DNA of 5,285 bases, from IMG/VR virus record IMGVR_UViG_3300014523_000071; one strand, written 5' to 3'. The position numbers and the translations under genes were made by a program. Every line of letters starts with the position of its first letter. Within the stretch, counting starts at the first letter, position 1. Positions 1-5,093 of this stretch are shown here, piece after piece. The stretch is from a virus (lineage: Duplodnaviria; Heunggongvirae; Uroviricota; Caudoviricetes). The notes below the pieces were generated by a model that was not told the origin of the DNA, did not search any database, and worked only from the letters and a program-made list of their open reading frames with translations.

Positions 1-1836
1 TTCTGCTGTAATTTGGCTTGAAAGTATAGGGCGTATCGCATTTGCAGCATTATTTAGCGCTCTTTCATAGGCTGGTGTTCCTGCTTTGGTGTTTGCCAAA
101 CGTAAGAGAGCATTCCTTGCTGCTTTTGACTCATACAAGCGCATCATTGCACCGAAACCAGCCTCAAGCCCCATTGATACGCCAAGAGTCGCAGTTGCGC
201 CAATCGTCCTTATCCTGTTGGCTTGCGATTGCCCCGTCTGAGTTACTACATTTGCGGTGTCTGACCTTGCTGTTTGCTGTAGAACTTCATGAAGAGAATC
301 AAGCTCTTTCATGTGCTTTCCAGAAAAAATAGTGTTGTAAATTTCACCGCCTGACTGAGATTTCAGCTTATTAACTTCAGTGATGAACTTGGCTGGAGAG
401 TCCCCGGCCTTTTCCGCTATTTTGCTGACGTAAGCTGCACGCATAGCATCTTTCCCCTTATCATCCAGTGCGCTCCAGATTCGTTTCACGTCAGATGGTT
501 TTCTGCTTAATACAACGGTATTTATAAGTTCAGGACTGGCTTCACTGCTTGCCTTGTTGAGCTTGTTGGCAATGTTTTTATTAAGCACCTTATTATAAAC
601 GTTTGCATAATCGGAATTTGCTTTAAGGTATTTTGCTGCGTCTGATGCACCGAGGTTTTTAGCAACTGCGTTACGAAGGTCTTTTGACATTGCATTCTCT
701 ACCATATTGGTAGCTGCTTTTGCCTGGTTGGGGAAGACCATAGCATCTCCCTGAACATTAGATCTAAATGCTGTTCTGTGCTGACGCAAGAGATCAAACG
801 TAACATCCAAATCAGTTGCAGGGTTTGCTAATTCTTCACGTAGGTTACGCAAGGATGTAAGCAGGCTTTGATTGGCAGACGTCCCAAGCCGTTCCTGTCT
901 TGCGATCGCTGTATTCAGAGCATTCATGGTATTTGTTGTATCAACTGCGGCATTACCCATTTTATTGGTGACGTCATTGATAACAGCGCCAGCGGCATCC
1001 TTCCGTCCCCTTAACGTGGTGGTCAGAGATTTCACCACATCATCAGGGTTGTACTCACCAAAACGGTCAAAATAATTACTTACCAGTTTACTACGCGTTG
1101 CATATTGCTCCGCTCGCTTTGATCCTGTCCCGAGCAAAGCCCCCTCGGCATCCTGAGTAAGGCCGCGAGTGAAAGCATTTTTCGGCGGGATAACATCAGA
1201 TGTCATTGGTGTCACGCCCATCGATTCTGATGTGGCAATTTTCTTCGCCACTTCTGGCGCAATATCACCTTTTATAGCCGTTATTCCACGCCCTATTCCC
1301 TTTGCTGCTGCGGAAAGAACACCCTGAGCGGCAAGGTTAACTCCGGCATTTTTAGCTGCATTTTGTGCGAAATCGCCTTTCTGATTTGCGGCCTCTGCCA
1401 GTGAGCCAATAGCCATGCTTCCTGCCGTTCCAACTCCTGGAACTAAATACCCGCCAATTGTTTCTCCAGCTTGCGCATAAGGGTCTGTCGGTCGATTGAC
1501 TGGACGATAGACATCATCCAATACTTTTGGCCCACCAAGCCCCTGACTGATTGCATTAATCAGACTTGCGCCACCCTGCAATACGTCAAATGGTATGTTT
1601 ACCAGACCACGACCAGCCTGTTCTGCAATTTGCCCTGCACTTTGACCACCAGTGAGCCAATCGCCAGCTTGTTGCATCAATGATGGTTCTTCCCGTGTTG
1701 GTGCATTATTGGCCTGATTAACTGTTTGTTGCTGAACAGCCTGACCAGCAAAATACTCATCAATGGCGGTGCCAATATCTTCGGTGCTCGTACCATCAGG
1801 AAAGGTAAATGTCTTACCGTTTGCAGTTACTTTCAT
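1..1836 (-). CDS. Large phage virion-associated protein (tape-measure-like or DNA-ejection/internal-protein-like), partial; 3' end lies beyond the left window edge, 612 codons in window
   Basis: I checked every plus-strand triplet from position 1 to 1836 in this register and found no tta/cta/tca, so the minus frame is open throughout. Start ATG is at 1836-1834 and overlaps the upstream gene's stop (minus-strand TGATG). N-terminus reads [31 protein letters not shown]; the protein is Ala/Gly-rich. Plus-strand ORFs across this span are all under 100 aa. Family assignment is inference only. Confidence 0.8.
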
Positions 1837-2828
1837 CATTCCACCGTAAATTGAATGCCTGATTTTGAGGTATATGATCCGGATTGACTCTGCTGCTGTT
1901 GGGTATTTGTCGGTTGTTGGTTATTGCTCTGTTGTTGACTATTTGCAGCACTTGAAACCACCAAAGCATCATAAACGCGACCAGACTGACCACGTAATGA
2001 GTTATATTGGCCCTGCATTTTTCGCATTTTTGTTTCAGTAGCAGCCTTGGAATCACCAGGCTGAGGCAGGTACATTTTGGAATACTCCTGCATCTCTGGC
2101 AGAGTAATTGCTGCACCTGTTTCTGGGCGCAAAATTGCATACAAGGCGTCTCTCGCATTTACCATATATTGCTGCTCCGCTGGTGATAGGCTTAAATTTG
2201 CAATAGTCCCATCACCAAGAGAGCGATTTATTAATGCAACTCGCTTAGGGTCAATGCTTTTACTAAGCTGATTCATTGAGTCCATTGAATCTTTTAATCG
2301 CAAAGCAAATCCTGCCGCCTTCTTGGAACCCTCATTAGCCTTATCTATGATGCTTTGCGCTTGTGGCAAACTAATTGGTTTAATGCCATCACCAGATATA
2401 GGTTGGTTTAGTTTTCCGGCTTCCTCGCTGCCATCGGTGTAATACTTAGTTACCGAGCCATCAGGATTGGTTTCAACCTTAAGTAATTTCTTAGCATTGG
2501 GATTAATTCCCGCCGCTGCCGCAAATGCCGCTGCACCATCTGGATCCGCCTTTAACATTTGCGCGTACTGATTGTAATTCTGCATTGCGACTGTTGGTGC
2601 ATATGCTGACGTTAACGCATTTGCTCGGCTAATATCCTGCCCTCTCGCCTGAAGTGCCTCGCCAGCCTGATTGCTGCGGATTGTCTCTGCCAGTCTGCCT
2701 CGGTCAATCTCACGACCAGCCATCTTGTCCTGAACAGCAAACGCCTTTTCTGGTCCAAGCGCACCGAGAGACATAGTAGTCAGCATGTGTGATAGCTGCT
2801 CTGGATTCTGGATACCTGTCTGAATCAT
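1836..2828 (-). CDS. Phage virion-associated protein with Gln-rich low-complexity C-terminus; probably a 5'-truncated remnant (frame stays open to 2942 with no start codon)
   Basis: 330-codon minus-strand ORF ending in TGA at 1838-1836, coupled to the downstream gene. No Shine-Dalgarno precedes the ATG at 2828. The same frame continues upstream as [38 protein letters not shown] with no ATG/GTG/TTG until a stop at 2945-2943. C-terminal tail is Q/N/S/T-rich ([19 protein letters not shown]). Confidence 0.7.
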
Positions 2829-2942
2829 CCAGTCAGCATTAGCACCAACGCGATTTAACCTGTCCTTGTTGTCAGTAATGAATTTACTGTAGGCTTCCGG
2901 TCCCTGAGAAAGAGCGACGTTACCGTAATAGTCCCCTGTCGG

Positions 2943-3215
2943 TTAGGGAAGCTGCGTGTTGAGCTGGAAGCAACAGAGAACAACCTCATTGATAGTGAAT
3001 GCCATGTTGCTGAACTGGAAGAAGCACTACGCGACAAGCAGGCGTTACTTGAAGCCTCAGAAAAGCGCATAGCAGAACAAAGCTCGATTGTTACAGCCGC
3101 TGAAAAACTGGTTCGCTGTAAAGGCCGCTATCACAGTGAGCAAAACTATCGTGCGCTGGCTGCATTGTTTGGCGTAACAGTGCCGGATTTACCACCACTG
3201 CAAGCAGATGATTAA
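2943..3215 (+). pseudogene. 5'-truncated fragment of an Ea22-like coiled-coil early-left-operon protein (C-terminal ~90 codons, no start codon)
   Basis: Plus frame is open from 2859 to TAA at 3213-3215 with no in-frame ATG. Translation LGKLRVELEATENNLIDSECHVAELEEALRDKQALLEASEKRIAEQ... is heptad-like. The GKLRVELE and KRIA motifs match what I recall of phage lambda Ea22 (memory only, not searched). It ends 10 nt before the SD and ATG of the next gene. Confidence 0.45.
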
Positions 3216-3225
3216 GGACTAACCT

Positions 3226-3798
3226 ATGACCACTATTACCAAAGAGCGACTACTGACAATCAAGCAGTGGCGCGAAACATACGGACCTGGTAGCAACGTT
3301 GTACTGCCAGCAGAAGAAGCGGAAGAACTGGCACGAATTGCTCTGGCATCGCTGGAAGCAGAACCTGTAAGCCAAACTTACAACTTGCCACAAACGCACT
3401 TTGAACAGGTTGCTGACCTTTACGAAATGCAATTTGATGACGGACGCACTTGTGCCTTTCATACTGATGCACAAAAGGCTGCGCAATGGCTTCGGGCATG
3501 CGACGGAAACAGGGTTCAGGAATACGTGAAACTGGAGCGACTGCAGAACGCGCTATCGGGCAACTCTCCGGTAATTCCGGATAGTTGGATAAGCTGTAGT
3601 GAGCGAATGCCGGAAAAGAATCAGAACGTGCTTATTTCGGTGAATTTCGATAGCTCTCTGGTTGAACCGCTAATATGCTCCGCACGCTATACCGGAAGCA
3701 CCTTTCGGCGCGGAGATGCAACGATTAAGCCGGGTAATGGTATTGAGCAAGCAACTCACTGGATTCCGCTACCGGAACCGCCGCAGGAGGCGAAATGA
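3226..3798 (+). CDS. DUF551-like phage protein (variable N-terminal domain plus C-terminal DUF551-type domain)
   Basis: 190-aa ORF with SD AAGGA 7 nt upstream of ATG 3226. C-terminal region WISCSERMPEKNQNVLISV...ATHWIPLPEPPQEAK fits the DUF551 signature as I recall it (W-I-x-x-x-E-R-x-P-E ... T-H-W-x-P-L-P-E-P-P). Stop TGA overlaps the next start (ATGA). Confidence 0.8.
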   Translation: MTTITKERLLTIKQWRETYGPGSNVVLPAEEAEELARIALASLEAEPVSQTYNLPQTHFEQVADLYEMQFDDGRTCAFHTDAQKAAQWLRACDGNRVQEYVKLERLQNALSGNSPVIPDSWISCSERMPEKNQNVLISVNFDSSLVEPLICSARYTGSTFRRGDATIKPGNGIEQATHWIPLPEPPQEAK

Positions 3799-4052
3799 TG
3801 GATGTAAAAGAGAAGGTTTTGCAGGTGATGCGTTCCCGGGCTGCCCTGCAAGATAAAGCTCTCGGCGGGGAATATCCATTCAGAATGGCAACCTGGAATT
3901 TGCGGTTGGCAATGGAGAAGGAATTTCCTGATGAAGAATGGCGTTCGGCAGATTTGCGCAAAATTCTTATGGAGANNNNNNNNNNNNNNNNNNNNNNNNN
4001 NNNNCATGCCAGCCGGATTGGTCAGGCGGTATGGAGACTGGAGGTGCGGTAA
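3795..4052 (+). CDS. Hypothetical small phage protein, interrupted by a 29-nt N run
   Basis: ATG at 3795 and 3798 preceded by GGAGG at 3786-3790. It overlaps the stop of the upstream gene and its own TAA overlaps the next ATG (TAATG at 4050-4054). The frame is maintained across the N block if the N count equals the true length. No family recognised. Confidence 0.65.
   Translation: MMDVKEKVLQVMRSRAALQDKALGGEYPFRMATWNLRLAMEKEFPDEEWRSADLRKILMEXXXXXXXXXXHASRIGQAVWRLEVR
3976..4004. other. Run of 29 N (assembly gap or masked bases) inside a CDS
   Basis: Directly visible in the sequence. Confidence 0.99.
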
Positions 4053-4333
4053 TGGCTAACCTGCAACTTGCCGTCAAAGGTGAATACTTCGATGCCATGA
4101 TTCGCGGAGATAAAACGGAAGAGTATCGCCTGTGTAATGACTACTGGAATAAGCGAATTATGTTCCGGGAATATGACCGCCTGATTATCACAAAGGGATA
4201 TCCGAAGCGCGACGACTCCAGTCGCAGAATTGATGTTCCGTATGGAGGATATGAAGTGAAAACAATCACACACCCCCACTTCGGTGATAAGCCGGTAAAG
4301 GTATACGCGATAAAGGTGAATATCAATTGCTAA
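4052..4333 (+). CDS. ASCH-domain-like (PUA-fold) small protein, 93 aa
   Basis: Strong SD GGAGGTG at 4040-4046, 7 nt before ATG 4052. N-terminal LAVKGEYFDAMIRGDKTEEYR contains the GxKxxExR motif characteristic of ASCH domains, in the usual N-terminal position, and the size is right for an ASCH fold. I placed the start at 4052 rather than the track's 3938 because of the SD and the TAATG coupling. Confidence 0.8.
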   Translation: MANLQLAVKGEYFDAMIRGDKTEEYRLCNDYWNKRIMFREYDRLIITKGYPKRDDSSRRIDVPYGGYEVKTITHPHFGDKPVKVYAIKVNINC

Positions 4334-4349
4334 ATTAGTGGCATAGCAT

Positions 4350-4388
4350 AAAGATGCTTGCATTAATGAAGTGTGTATAATAACGCCT
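4350..4388 (+). promoter_or_regulatory. Candidate sigma70 extended -10 promoter (TGTGTATAAT) for the downstream small ORF
   Basis: Perfect TATAAT at 4376-4381 immediately preceded by TG at 4374-4375, in an AT-rich intergenic region. There is no good -35 at 17-bp spacing. The palindrome CATTAATG at 4361-4368 lies just upstream. Confidence 0.45.
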
Positions 4389-4444
4389 CATCAATTGTAA
4401 ACTACTGAAATAGCAAAAAATGCATATTAAAGAGGATTCGAAAA

Positions 4445-4636
4445 TTGAAAATGTTCATGCAAATAGACAGACGCATAGATCTTAATGGCAATTCATACTT
4501 AGTTAGATGCGAAGAGAGGCCTAACGGTGAGTGGCGTGTATATGATATTGACCGTAAGATCAATATCAGCACCATGAACAAAGACACTGCCTTTGATGAA
4601 TGGAAAGCTGAAGCTAAAAAACAACATAATTCGTAG
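4445..4636 (+). CDS. Small hypothetical protein (61-63 aa)
   Basis: SD AGAGGA at 4431-4436. Start is either TTG 4445 (8-nt spacing) or ATG 4451; stop TAG at 4634-4636. Translation MFMQIDRRIDLNGNSYLVRCEERPNGEWRVYDIDRK... matches no family I recognise. Local sequence is noticeably AT-rich relative to its flanks. Confidence 0.6.
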   Translation: MKMFMQIDRRIDLNGNSYLVRCEERPNGEWRVYDIDRKINISTMNKDTAFDEWKAEAKKQHNS

Positions 4637-4678
4637 AATTACAAAAACCCTAACCAATTGATGGATTTCTTTTATCTG

Positions 4679-4703
4679 AACTCGCTACAGCGAGTTTTGT
4701 TTT
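4679..4703 (+). terminator. Candidate rho-independent terminator or attenuator hairpin
   Basis: 7-bp stem AACTCGC / GCGAGTT (4679-4685 with 4690-4696), loop TACA, followed by TTTGTTTT. The T tract runs directly into the SD and start of the next gene, so read-through is plausible. Confidence 0.5.
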
Positions 4704-4715
4704 ATGGAGATGATT

Positions 4716-5015
4716 ATGGCCTGTTCAACATTCAACCCTCTAACGTTACAGAAATACCAGCCAGCCCCTGAAGATTTATGCTCACTGTGTGGCGGAAATC
4801 ATGGTAAAGCCGCCATGATTGAATGTAAGGACAAAATCCACATTTGCCTTAATTGCGTTGATGTCCTCGTTGATATCAAAAATGAGAGAGAAGATAAAAA
4901 GCGTAGCGAGGCTGTTCGAGCCTTAGATTCATGGATGCGAGATGGGTATAGTGCCGCGCAAATTTATGACTTAGCAATATCAAAAGGCGAAATACCAGGA
5001 GTGCGCATCGAATAA
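4716..5015 (+). CDS. Small Cys4 zinc-ribbon protein (CxxC...CxxC) with helical C-terminal half
   Basis: SD GGAGA at 4706-4710, 5 nt before ATG 4716 (the track's 4704 start is in the same frame). Contains CSLCGG and, 18 residues later, CLNCVD, which is typical zinc-ribbon spacing. Flanked by hairpin terminators on both sides. Confidence 0.7.
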   Translation: MACSTFNPLTLQKYQPAPEDLCSLCGGNHGKAAMIECKDKIHICLNCVDVLVDIKNEREDKKRSEAVRALDSWMRDGYSAAQIYDLAISKGEIPGVRIE

Positions 5016-5052
5016 GACGTAACCAATATTTGTATTGAAGAACTGAAAGAAC

Positions 5053-5079
5053 AAGCCGCCTGATGGCGGTTTATTTTTG
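5053..5079 (+). terminator. Rho-independent terminator
   Basis: 8-bp stem AAGCCGCC / GGCGGTTT (one G-U pair), loop TGAT, followed by ATTTTTG; about 40 nt after the stop of the zinc-ribbon CDS. Confidence 0.6.
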
Positions 5080-5093
5080 CCTGGAGAATTAAG

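What the first reader, a model, noticed from the sequence alone, without database searches (positions are those of the whole stretch)
4052..4333. Minimal ASCH-like protein with GxKxxExR motif
The product carries RGDKTEEYR (G-x-K-x-x-E-x-R) at the position typical of ASCH domains. ASCH/PUA/EVE-type folds bind RNA or modified nucleotides. A stand-alone 93-aa version in a prophage early operon might sense or act on modified nucleic acid, or interfere with a host system that does.
Basis: partly seen in the sequence, partly recalled or inferred. Interest (0 to 1): 0.5.

Follow-up and report, generated by a model that had tools for sequence, protein, structure and literature searches.

The report
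Small phage ASCH-fold protein, already annotated
The ORF is a real, widely conserved 93-residue phage protein with a stripped-down ASCH (PUA-like) fold and an intact GxKxxExR pocket motif. Public databases already label it "ASCH domain-containing protein", and its actual job is still untested.

Summary
**Observation: confirmed.** Window 4052-4333 (+) encodes a 93-aa protein. G19-x-K21-x-x-E24-x-R26 sits at the helix 1 / strand 2 junction, with the same residue numbers as in human EOLA1 and E. coli YqfB.

**Conservation.** In 126 diverse relatives (40-75% identity), G19 is kept in 117, K21 in 126, E24 in 125 and R26 in 123.

**Not new.** This exact sequence is in NCBI as "ASCH domain-containing protein". 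Homologous DNA (≥80% identity) occurs in 1662 of 5426 complete E. coli genomes and protein matches in 332 phage records (933W L0064, ST104 orf6).

**Setting.** It is an accessory gene of the leftward early region of a deleted P22-like prophage. No partner gene is conserved across 82 related loci.

**Most likely mechanism (inferred).** It works alone as a small pocket protein that binds, or deacylates, a flipped-out or free modified base.

**Function.** A role in sensing modification or in counter-defence has only weak contextual support and no experimental support.

The parts
4052..4333 (+). CDS of the 93-aa minimal ASCH-fold protein (stop codon included); homologue of 933W L0064 and ST104 orf6
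4040..4044 (+). GGAGG ribosome-binding site, 7 nt before the ATG. The ATG at 4052 overlaps the upstream TAA (4050-4052), which suggests translational coupling.
   Evidence: Read directly from the sequence. Coupling is an inference.
4106..4129 (+). Codons for G19-D-K21-T-E-E24-Y-R26, the GxKxxExR motif at the helix 1 / strand 2 junction
   Evidence: Conservation: 117, 126, 125 and 123 of 126. Same residue numbers as the EOLA1 motif (PMC6803910). In YqfB and EOLA1, K21, T/E24 and R26 form the catalytic pocket.
4142..4156 (+). Y31-W32-N-K-R35, a family-specific motif in predicted helix 2. W32 is invariant; R35 is kept in 115 of 126.
4196..4204 (+). G49-Y50-P51, a near-invariant loop after strand 3 (123, 124 and 122 of 126)
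4268..4285 (+). T73-H74-P-H76-F77-G78, the loop between strands 5 and 6. H74 is kept in 116 of 126, F77 in 117, G78 in 114. The loop covaries with Y12.
   Evidence: Y12->W goes with H74->S, H76->E and F77->W.
3795..4052 (+). Upstream, stop-start-overlapping gene (phrog_2814; DUF4752 in RefSeq relatives). It is interrupted in this window by a masked run of N at 3977-4004.

Best explanation
The ORF encodes a genuine, widely spread phage protein that is little more than the bare core of an ASCH domain. ASCH is the ASC-1-homology branch of the PUA-like beta-barrels. The predicted order of elements is strand, helix, strand, helix, then four more strands. The Glu24 version of the GxKxxExR motif places it with the TRIP4/EOLA1-like type rather than the YqfB (Thr24) type.

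It is a non-essential accessory gene of the leftward early region (PL operon, the 'ea' / exo-xis region) of a P22-like prophage. Its start overlaps the stop of the gene upstream, so it is probably translated together with it.

It most likely works on its own. K21, E24 and R26 on helix 1 / strand 2, together with conserved aromatic and histidine residues (Y12, W32, Y50, H74, F77), would line a small cavity. That cavity would take up one nucleobase, either free or flipped out of RNA or DNA, and probably a modified one. By analogy with the only two stand-alone ASCH enzymes with known chemistry (YqfB and EOLA1, both N4-acetylcytidine deacetylases), the likeliest activity is binding or hydrolytic removal of an N-linked group from a cytosine-type base or nucleoside early in infection.

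- **Shown:** the gene, its conservation, the fold, and the motif with its position.
- **Inferred:** that the listed residues form one pocket, the ligand, any catalysis, and the benefit to the phage.
For: - **Gene.** Real and under purifying selection.
- **Family size and spread.** 1253 clusters at 50% identity; 332 phage records, including temperate P22-like and Stx phages, virulent Jersey-like Salmonella phages, a Klebsiella jumbo phage and P2-like Ralstonia and Acidovorax phages; DNA matches at ≥80% identity in 1662 of 5426 complete E. coli genomes.
- **Motif.** Nearly invariant at 40-75% identity and placed at helix 1 / strand 2 as in EOLA1.
- **Fold, model.** The AF2 model has pLDDT 86.8 and all five models lie between 82.5 and 86.8.
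- **Fold, Foldseek.** Probability 0.97 for PH0355, 0.91 for 3IUW and for YqfB bound to ac4C, 0.90 for PF0470. EVE and YTH reach at most 0.23.
- **Pfam.** The ASCH model is hit by 63 of 126 relatives at E <= 1 (best 4e-5), and DUF3850 by 22 of 126.
- **Pocket precedent.** K21, T/E24 and R26 are the catalytic pocket in YqfB and EOLA1, and E24 marks the TRIP4-like clade.
- **Coupled positions.** Position 12 covaries with 74/76/77, which fits one shared pocket wall.
- **Works alone.** No gene other than integrase or excisionase recurs next to it in 82 loci.
- **Charge.** pI 9.1.
Against: - **No experiment** exists for any member.
- **Weak sequence signal.** The window protein is below Pfam's ASCH threshold (14.4 against 21.2 bits). 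Sequence searches of the PDB find nothing.
- **Missing parts.** The protein is shorter than characterised ASCH enzymes. It appears to lack the C-terminal helix that carries YqfB's fourth catalytic residue, E74.
- **Pocket not checked in 3D.** I could not read model coordinates, so the claim that Y12, W32, Y50, H74 and F77 line the pocket rests on conservation and covariation only.
- **Variable histidine.** H76 is H in 83, E in 26 and Q in 7 of 126, so an HxH metal site is not general.
- **Redundancy.** E. coli already has YqfB, so a phage copy of an ac4C deacetylase has no obvious advantage.
Confidence: 0.5

Rival explanations
1. It is a single-stranded-RNA-binding protein or endoribonuclease, like the Zymomonas mobilis ASCH protein. 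It would act on host or phage transcripts or tRNA early in infection.
For: - Several database records call family members 'RNA-binding protein'.
- The protein is basic, pI 9.1.
- ASCH was originally predicted to bind RNA (cited).
Against: - ZmASCH is 140-150 residues long. PDB entry titles list Y47F and S128A mutants, and S128 lies in a C-terminal part that this 93-residue protein has no room for.
- ZmASCH ranks below PH0355, 3IUW, YqfB and PF0470.
- 'RNA-binding protein' in the records is an automatic name, not a result.
Confidence: 0.15
2. It is a counter-defence factor. It would shield or process modified bases in phage DNA, cooperate with phage methyltransferases or Lar against restriction, or soak up a nucleotide-type immune signal.
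For: - It sits in the early accessory region, where anti-defence genes cluster, and it also occurs in strictly virulent phages.
- A C5 DNA methyltransferase lies within 3 kb on the same strand in 9 of 82 loci, and in 7 of those it ends no more than about 440 nt upstream of, or starts within about 400 nt downstream of, the ASCH gene.
- Other methyltransferases and Lar appear as direct neighbours in a few loci.
- The domain is fused to a PAPS-reductase-family enzyme in Acidovorax phages Alfacinha1 and Alfacinha3. In the related phage Acica that enzyme sits directly beside a C5 methylase.
- A BFVD structure named 'Restriction alleviation protein' matches with TM 0.72.
- ASCH and EVE domains serve as modification sensors in defence systems.
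Against: - About 85-90% of loci have no methyltransferase nearby, and I had no background rate for phage early regions.
- The fusion occurs in only two nearly identical phages.
- There is no PADLOC hit.
- No phenotype is reported anywhere.
- Neighbours differ even among E. coli prophages.
Confidence: 0.13
3. The ASCH scaffold is kept, but the protein acts through protein-protein contacts with no nucleic-acid or nucleoside ligand, for example by modulating a host or phage factor.
For: - Many small early phage proteins work this way (general knowledge).
- Recurrent short Cys-rich extensions, at either end, occur in some relatives. They could equally well be protein-binding modules.
Against: - The residues conserved most strictly (K21, E24, R26) are exactly those that form the ligand or catalytic pocket in characterised ASCH proteins.
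- The extensions match no Pfam family, and some may be gene-calling artefacts.
Confidence: 0.1

Closest known systems
Human EOLA1 / TRIP4-like clade of ASCH domains (PDB 5Y7D)
   Same: A stand-alone ASCH domain. The GxKxxExR motif carries Glu at position 24 and uses identical residue numbers (G19, K21, E24, R26) at helix 1 / strand 2. An aromatic residue occupies position 12.
E. coli YqfB, N4-acetylcytidine amidohydrolase (PDB 9KYF, 9KYH)
   Different: YqfB has Thr24 (the nucleophile) where this family has invariant Glu24. YqfB's E74 lies in a C-terminal helix that the phage protein seems to lack. Sequence identity is 13%.
PH0355 (2Z0T), PF0470 (1XNE), E. faecalis NP_814290 (3IUW): uncharacterised minimal ASCH / DUF3850-like proteins
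   Same: These are the best structural matches. They are of similar small size (80-113 residues) and also have no known function. 22 of 126 relatives touch Pfam DUF3850.
   Different: Only 15-23% identity. The phage family carries a helix 2 with YWxKR and a THPHFG loop that define it as a separate family (phrog_625).
Zymomonas mobilis ASCH ribonuclease (5GUQ)
   Same: ASCH fold and GxKxxExR motif.
   Different: It is larger (140-150 residues) and metal-dependent; the residues probed by mutation (per PDB entry titles) include S128, in a region absent here. It ranks lower among the matches.
EVE / YTH / SRA modified-base readers of the PUA-like superfamily
   Same: The same superfamily barrel, with the general idea of a flipped base held in a pocket.

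Membership tests
ASCH superfamily (PUA-like clan; Pfam PF04266 and relatives) | [quoted passage not shown] | tested here: met
ASCH superfamily (PUA-like clan; Pfam PF04266 and relatives) | GxKxxExR motif at the helix 1 / strand 2 junction, conserved among homologues | tested here: met
   G19, K21, E24 and R26 are present. They are kept in 117, 126, 125 and 123 of 126 relatives. The position matches EOLA1.
ASCH superfamily (PUA-like clan; Pfam PF04266 and relatives) | Detected by the curated Pfam ASCH model above its gathering score | tested here: inconclusive
   The window protein scores 14.4 bits against a cut-off of 21.2, E 0.062. Of 126 relatives, 63 hit at E <= 1, best 4e-5. This is a limit of the detection model, not a structural criterion.
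ASCH superfamily (PUA-like clan; Pfam PF04266 and relatives) | Binds RNA, DNA or a nucleoside in the motif cavity | not testable with these tools
   Needs biochemistry or an experimental structure.
YqfB-type N4-acetylcytidine amidohydrolases | Catalytic residues Lys21, Thr24, Arg26 and Glu74 | tested here: not met
   K21 and R26 are present, but position 24 is Glu in 125 of 126 relatives, not Thr or Ser. No helix equivalent to the one carrying E74 is predicted after strand 5. Residue list from PMC9599836.
YqfB-type N4-acetylcytidine amidohydrolases | Operon link to the TmcA/NAT10 acetyltransferase in some prokaryotes | tested here: not met
   No acetyltransferase family appeared among the direct neighbours in about 80 loci. 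The link is described in bioRxiv 10.64898/2026.08.01.741249.
TRIP4/EOLA1-like clade of ASCH | Glutamate at motif position 24, with K21 and R26 | tested here: met
TRIP4/EOLA1-like clade of ASCH | Placement inside the clade by phylogeny or profile comparison | not tested
   No alignment of bona fide clade members was available. hhalign against the single YqfB sequence aligned the motif in register (residues 11-29 to 11-29) but was not significant.
ZmASCH-type ssRNA endoribonuclease | Metal-dependent RNA cleavage, with catalytic residues outside the core motif (Y47 and S128 were mutated in PDB entries) | not tested
DUF3850 (PF12961), phage-rich ASCH-like family | Match to the Pfam model | tested here: inconclusive
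EVE / YTH modified-base readers | Closest structural similarity to EVE or YTH domains | tested here: not met

The most novel reading that the evidence does not exclude
The family is a phage-encoded 'eraser' or 'reader' of a modified nucleobase that is used for counter-defence. For example, it might strip or mask an N-linked base modification, or bind modified nucleosides or immune signalling nucleotides, and so help the phage escape restriction or tRNA- or nucleotide-based immunity. That would explain its presence in about a third of E. coli genomes, in Stx phages and in virulent Salmonella phages.
Probability: 0.12. Interest if true: 0.65.

Novelty: already known. Interest (0 to 1): 0.27.

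Why it matters
As an annotation it adds nothing, because the protein is already labelled ASCH in public databases.

It could matter as a target. This is a very common, completely uncharacterised accessory gene: its DNA is found in 31% of complete E. coli genomes, and the protein in Shiga-toxin phages and in virulent Salmonella phages considered for therapy. It keeps intact the three-residue pocket that was recently shown to deacetylate N4-acetylcytidine in YqfB and EOLA1.

A defined ligand or activity would say what a stand-alone minimal ASCH domain does for a phage. It would also give a function to a whole PHROG (phrog_625).

Tried and rejected
**Searches that found nothing useful**
- Sequence searches of the PDB with the protein and with two profiles gave only chance-level hits to a xylosidase and ribosomal proteins.
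- NCBIfam and PADLOC gave no hit.
- hhalign of the family profile against the single YqfB sequence aligned the motif in register but was not significant.
- A search for 'L0064' together with '933W' in the paper library found nothing.

- The search for related loci with the widest alignment failed because no conserved stretch was long enough. A narrower alignment worked.
- The afdb50 fold library was not available.

**Checks on possible fusions and partners**
- Longer relatives (P0208, P0262, P0241, P0199, P0207, P0203, and the 399-aa ORF in L082) had no significant Pfam domain in their extra parts. P0194 has only a sub-threshold reverse-transcriptase hit.
- Cys-rich N- or C-terminal extensions matched no zinc-ribbon or Lar model significantly. 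Some may be over-extended start calls.
- BLASTP clustering of all ORFs in 88 loci found no recurrent neighbour apart from integrases and antisense shadows of the gene itself.
- Two loci carry an upstream protein with a GRKTQTRR-type motif. hhalign gave no significant relation to the family.

**Ideas rejected**
- An HxH metal site as a general feature: H76 is replaced by E or Q in a quarter of relatives.
- The antisense ORF 4022-4363 as the real gene: substitutions follow the + frame.
- A sigma-70 promoter directly downstream of the gene: the TTGCAT and TATAAT hexamers at 4358 and 4376 are only 12 nt apart, and the scan reported nothing there.

Full report
**1. What is in the sequence**

Window 4052-4333 on the + strand is an open frame of 93 codons plus a stop: MANLQLAVKGEYFDAMIRGDKTEEYRLCNDYWNKRIMFREYDRLIITKGYPKRDDSSRRIDVPYGGYEVKTITHPHFGDKPVKVYAIKVNINC.
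- Its ATG overlaps the TAA of the upstream gene (TAATG), and a GGAGG lies 7 nt upstream.
- The motif G-x-K-x-x-E-x-R is residues 19-26 (nt 4106-4129). It is the only such motif in any frame of the window.
- The motif turns up in 0.26% of shuffles of the protein.
- Compared with eight homologous genes, substitutions fall 109/89/305 on codon positions 1/2/3 of this frame. So this frame is the coding one, not the long antisense ORF 4022-4363, and it is under purifying selection.

**2. Where it sits**
- Window 1-2922 is 98% identical to the DNA-transfer (ejection) genes of P22-like prophages, on the - strand.
- From about 2945 onward the + strand carries, in order: the 3' end of an ead/Ea22-like gene; a DUF551 gene (3226-3798); a DUF4752/phrog_2814 gene (3795-4052, interrupted by 28 masked N); the ASCH gene; two small AT-rich genes; and an excisionase-like gene.
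- The same order (erf/abc, then ea genes, DUF4752, ASCH, xis, int) is annotated in P22-like phage ST104, where the gene is orf6, 'similar to 933W L0064'. It is also annotated in an E. coli prophage that has the same junction between ejection genes and ea genes.
It is the leftward early accessory region, here in a prophage with a large internal deletion.

**3. Is it an ASCH domain?**

*Sequence alone is marginal.*
- Pfam ASCH gives E 0.062, 14.4 bits against a cut-off of 21.2.
- NCBIfam, PADLOC and sequence searches of the PDB find nothing.
- PHROGs places it in phrog_625, function unknown.

*The family is large.*
- A profile search of 1.84 billion representatives found 1253 clusters at 50% identity.
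- In an alignment of 126 representatives that are 40-75% identical to the query, G19 is kept in 117, K21 in 126, E24 in 125 and R26 in 123.
- Other near-invariant positions are W32, R35, G49-Y50-P51, G66, H74, F77 and G78.
- Half of these relatives touch the Pfam ASCH model (best E 4e-5), and 22 touch the related DUF3850 model.

*Structure prediction agrees.*
- With a shallow alignment the best model had pLDDT 84, but the other four were poor.
- With 126 sequences all five models converged (82.5-86.8) on the same topology: strand 3-8, helix 10-18, strand 23-27, helix 30-36, and strands 43-48, 59-63, 67-72 and 82-88.
- Foldseek gives the same order: probability 0.97 for PH0355, 0.91 for 3IUW and for YqfB bound to ac4C, 0.90 for PF0470. 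EVE and YTH reach at most 0.23.
- The scores are modest (TM about 0.5), as expected for a 93-residue divergent domain, but the ranking is consistent.

*The motif is in the canonical place.*
- In human EOLA1 the motif residues are Gly19, Lys21, Glu24 and Arg26, in the alpha1-beta2 region that forms the cavity (PMC6803910). These are the same numbers as here.

**4. It is already known as such**
- The identical protein is in NCBI as 'ASCH domain-containing protein [Escherichia coli]', inside a 90%-identity cluster of 1505 sequences.
- The gene's DNA matches at 80% identity or more in 1662 of 5426 complete E. coli genomes, with up to five copies per genome. RefSeq gives every listed match that name.
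- tblastn finds it in 332 phage records. These include P22-like phages, Stx-converting phages including 933W, virulent Jersey-like Salmonella siphophages, a Klebsiella jumbo phage, and P2-like Ralstonia and Acidovorax phages.
- I found no experimental work on any member.

**5. What the anatomy says about mechanism**

Two stand-alone ASCH proteins have defined chemistry.
- E. coli YqfB deacetylates N4-acetylcytidine with K21, T24, R26 and E74 (PMC9599836).
- Human EOLA1 does the same with a K21/E24/R26 pocket. Glu24 is described as the hallmark of the TRIP4-like clade, which includes many bacterial members linked to restriction-modification and base-modification genes (bioRxiv 10.64898/2026.08.01.741249).

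The phage family compares with these as follows.
- It keeps K21, E24 and R26 almost without exception, so the pocket is what selection preserves.
- It is not a YqfB-type enzyme. Position 24 is Glu, and no helix equivalent to the one carrying E74 is predicted.
- Position 12 aligns with cavity residue Tyr12 of EOLA1 and is aromatic in 125 of 126 relatives.
- Position 12 covaries with the loop between strands 5 and 6. All 7 sequences with S74, and 8 of the 9 with W77, have W12. None of the 106 sequences with Y12 has S74.
- That pattern suggests helix 1 and the THPHFG loop form one wall of the same site. I could not check this in three dimensions because the model coordinates are not readable.
- H76 is not general (E or Q in a quarter of relatives), so a universal HxH metal site is unlikely.

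**6. Context in other genomes**

I fetched 80 loci from 185,000 species genomes, spanning alpha-, beta-, gamma- and deltaproteobacteria and one Dehalococcoidia MAG, plus several phage loci.
- *No conserved partner.* Clustering all ORFs showed no recurrent neighbour except integrases downstream.
- *Pfam scan of the direct neighbours.* Upstream: DUF551 in 4 loci, C5 DNA methylase in 4 and Lar in 2. Downstream: integrase in 6, HTH_17 (excisionase-like) in 3, C5 methylase in 2, D12 methylase in 1, PAPS reductase in 1.
- *Iterative search.* C5-methylase-like ORFs lie within 3 kb in 9 of 82 loci, always on the same strand. Six of them end no more than about 440 nt upstream of the ASCH gene and one starts 384 nt downstream.
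- *One fusion.* In Acidovorax phages Alfacinha1 and Alfacinha3 the domain is fused to the N-terminus of a PAPS-reductase-family protein. In the related phage Acica that protein lacks the domain and sits directly beside a C5 methylase, and tblastn matches in Burkholderia and Agrobacterium phages also overlap methyltransferase annotations.
- *One structural hint.* A BFVD model named 'Restriction alleviation protein' resembles the fold (TM 0.72).

These are hints toward DNA-modification or anti-restriction biology. They cover a minority of loci, I had no background rate, and the fusion is confined to one lineage. The main message is that the gene travels and presumably works alone.

**7. Best explanation and rivals**
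- **Best explanation (0.5).** It is a minimal, autonomous ASCH-fold pocket protein that binds, and perhaps hydrolytically trims, a single modified nucleobase or nucleoside early in infection.
- **ssRNA binder or nuclease like ZmASCH (0.15).** The structural match is weaker, and the region holding ZmASCH's extra catalytic residues is missing here.
- **Counter-defence factor working with or like methyltransferases and Lar, or a nucleotide sponge (0.13).** This rests only on the minority context above.
- **Protein-binding scaffold with no nucleic-acid ligand (0.1).** This is disfavoured because the most conserved residues are the pocket residues.
- **Decaying or non-coding ORF.** Excluded by conservation.

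**8. Verdict**

The functional speculation is reasonable and untested.
- Novelty: already known.
- Interest: low to moderate. The family is very common, sits in medically relevant phages, keeps the pocket of the newly defined ac4C deacetylases, and has never been studied.

Noticed in passing
window 3977-4004: A run of 28 N (masked bases) inside the upstream DUF4752/phrog_2814 gene. The reading frame across it cannot be checked, and the ASCH frame is also open upstream through it (ORF 3938-4333).
   Followed up: partly
window ~2922-2945: A junction between a 5'-truncated P22 gp16-like DNA-transfer gene (- strand, 1836-2828; matches end at 2922) and the 3' end of an ead/Ea22-like gene (+ strand, about 2945-3215). 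The prophage has lost everything between its ejection genes and its ea region. A similar join of truncated ejection genes to early-left genes is annotated in E. coli PSJ-23 (L001).
   Followed up: partly
window 4334-5090: An AT-rich stretch (35-41% GC, against about 50% upstream). It holds two small genes: phrog_16329 (63 aa) and phrog_3680 (103 aa, with a weak ClpX-type C4 zinc-finger hit). Terminator-like hairpins lie at 4678-4697 and 5053-5072. In ST104 the ASCH gene is followed directly by xis, so this looks like a moron-type insertion.
   Followed up: partly
window 4358-4381: TTGCAT and TGtTATAAT lie just downstream of the ASCH stop. The hexamers are only 12 nt apart, so the sigma-70 scan did not call a promoter. 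The TGnTATAAT could still act as an extended -10 for the AT-rich insert.
   Followed up: no
L007 4001-5380 (Acidovorax phage Alfacinha3 gp49); also Alfacinha1: A 459-aa protein in which residues 1-90 belong to this ASCH family and residues 99-365 are a PAPS-reductase domain (E 7e-27). The related phage Acica has the reductase without the domain, directly beside a C5 DNA methylase (L011). tblastn matches to the reductase in Burkholderia and Agrobacterium phages also overlap DNA-methyltransferase annotations.
   Followed up: partly
alignment A2 (e.g. P0171, P0178, P0217, P0228, P0267, P0268): A subgroup replaces E-Y-F (positions 11-13) and T-H-P-H-F-G (73-78) with K-W-F and T-S-E-E-W-G/N together. 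This is a concerted swap that may mark a different ligand specificity.
   Followed up: partly
L084 1859-2989 and L086 751-1527: In two loci the gene directly upstream encodes a larger protein with a YqfB-like G-x-K-T-Q-T-R-R motif. It may be a second, unrelated ASCH-like domain. hhalign to the family was not significant.
   Followed up: partly
window 3226-3798; L006 5273-5482: A DUF551 gene accompanies the ASCH gene both in this P22-like prophage and, as a 69-aa version immediately downstream, in the virulent Salmonella phage Kenya-K9. DUF551 was the direct neighbour in 5 of about 80 loci.
   Followed up: partly
literature: PMC13566846, Dickeya dadantii 3937 prophage 1, Dda3937_01763: A prophage gene annotated 'ASCH domain-containing protein', two genes from the repressor, scored essential in Tn-seq. 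I could not verify whether it belongs to this family. A gene this small may also be a false positive.
   Followed up: no
representatives P0147, P0167, P0172, P0174, P0209, P0222, P0223, P0229, P0235: Recurrent short Cys-rich (zinc-ribbon-like) extensions lie N- or C-terminal to the domain. None matches a Pfam family significantly, and some may be start-codon artefacts.
   Followed up: partly
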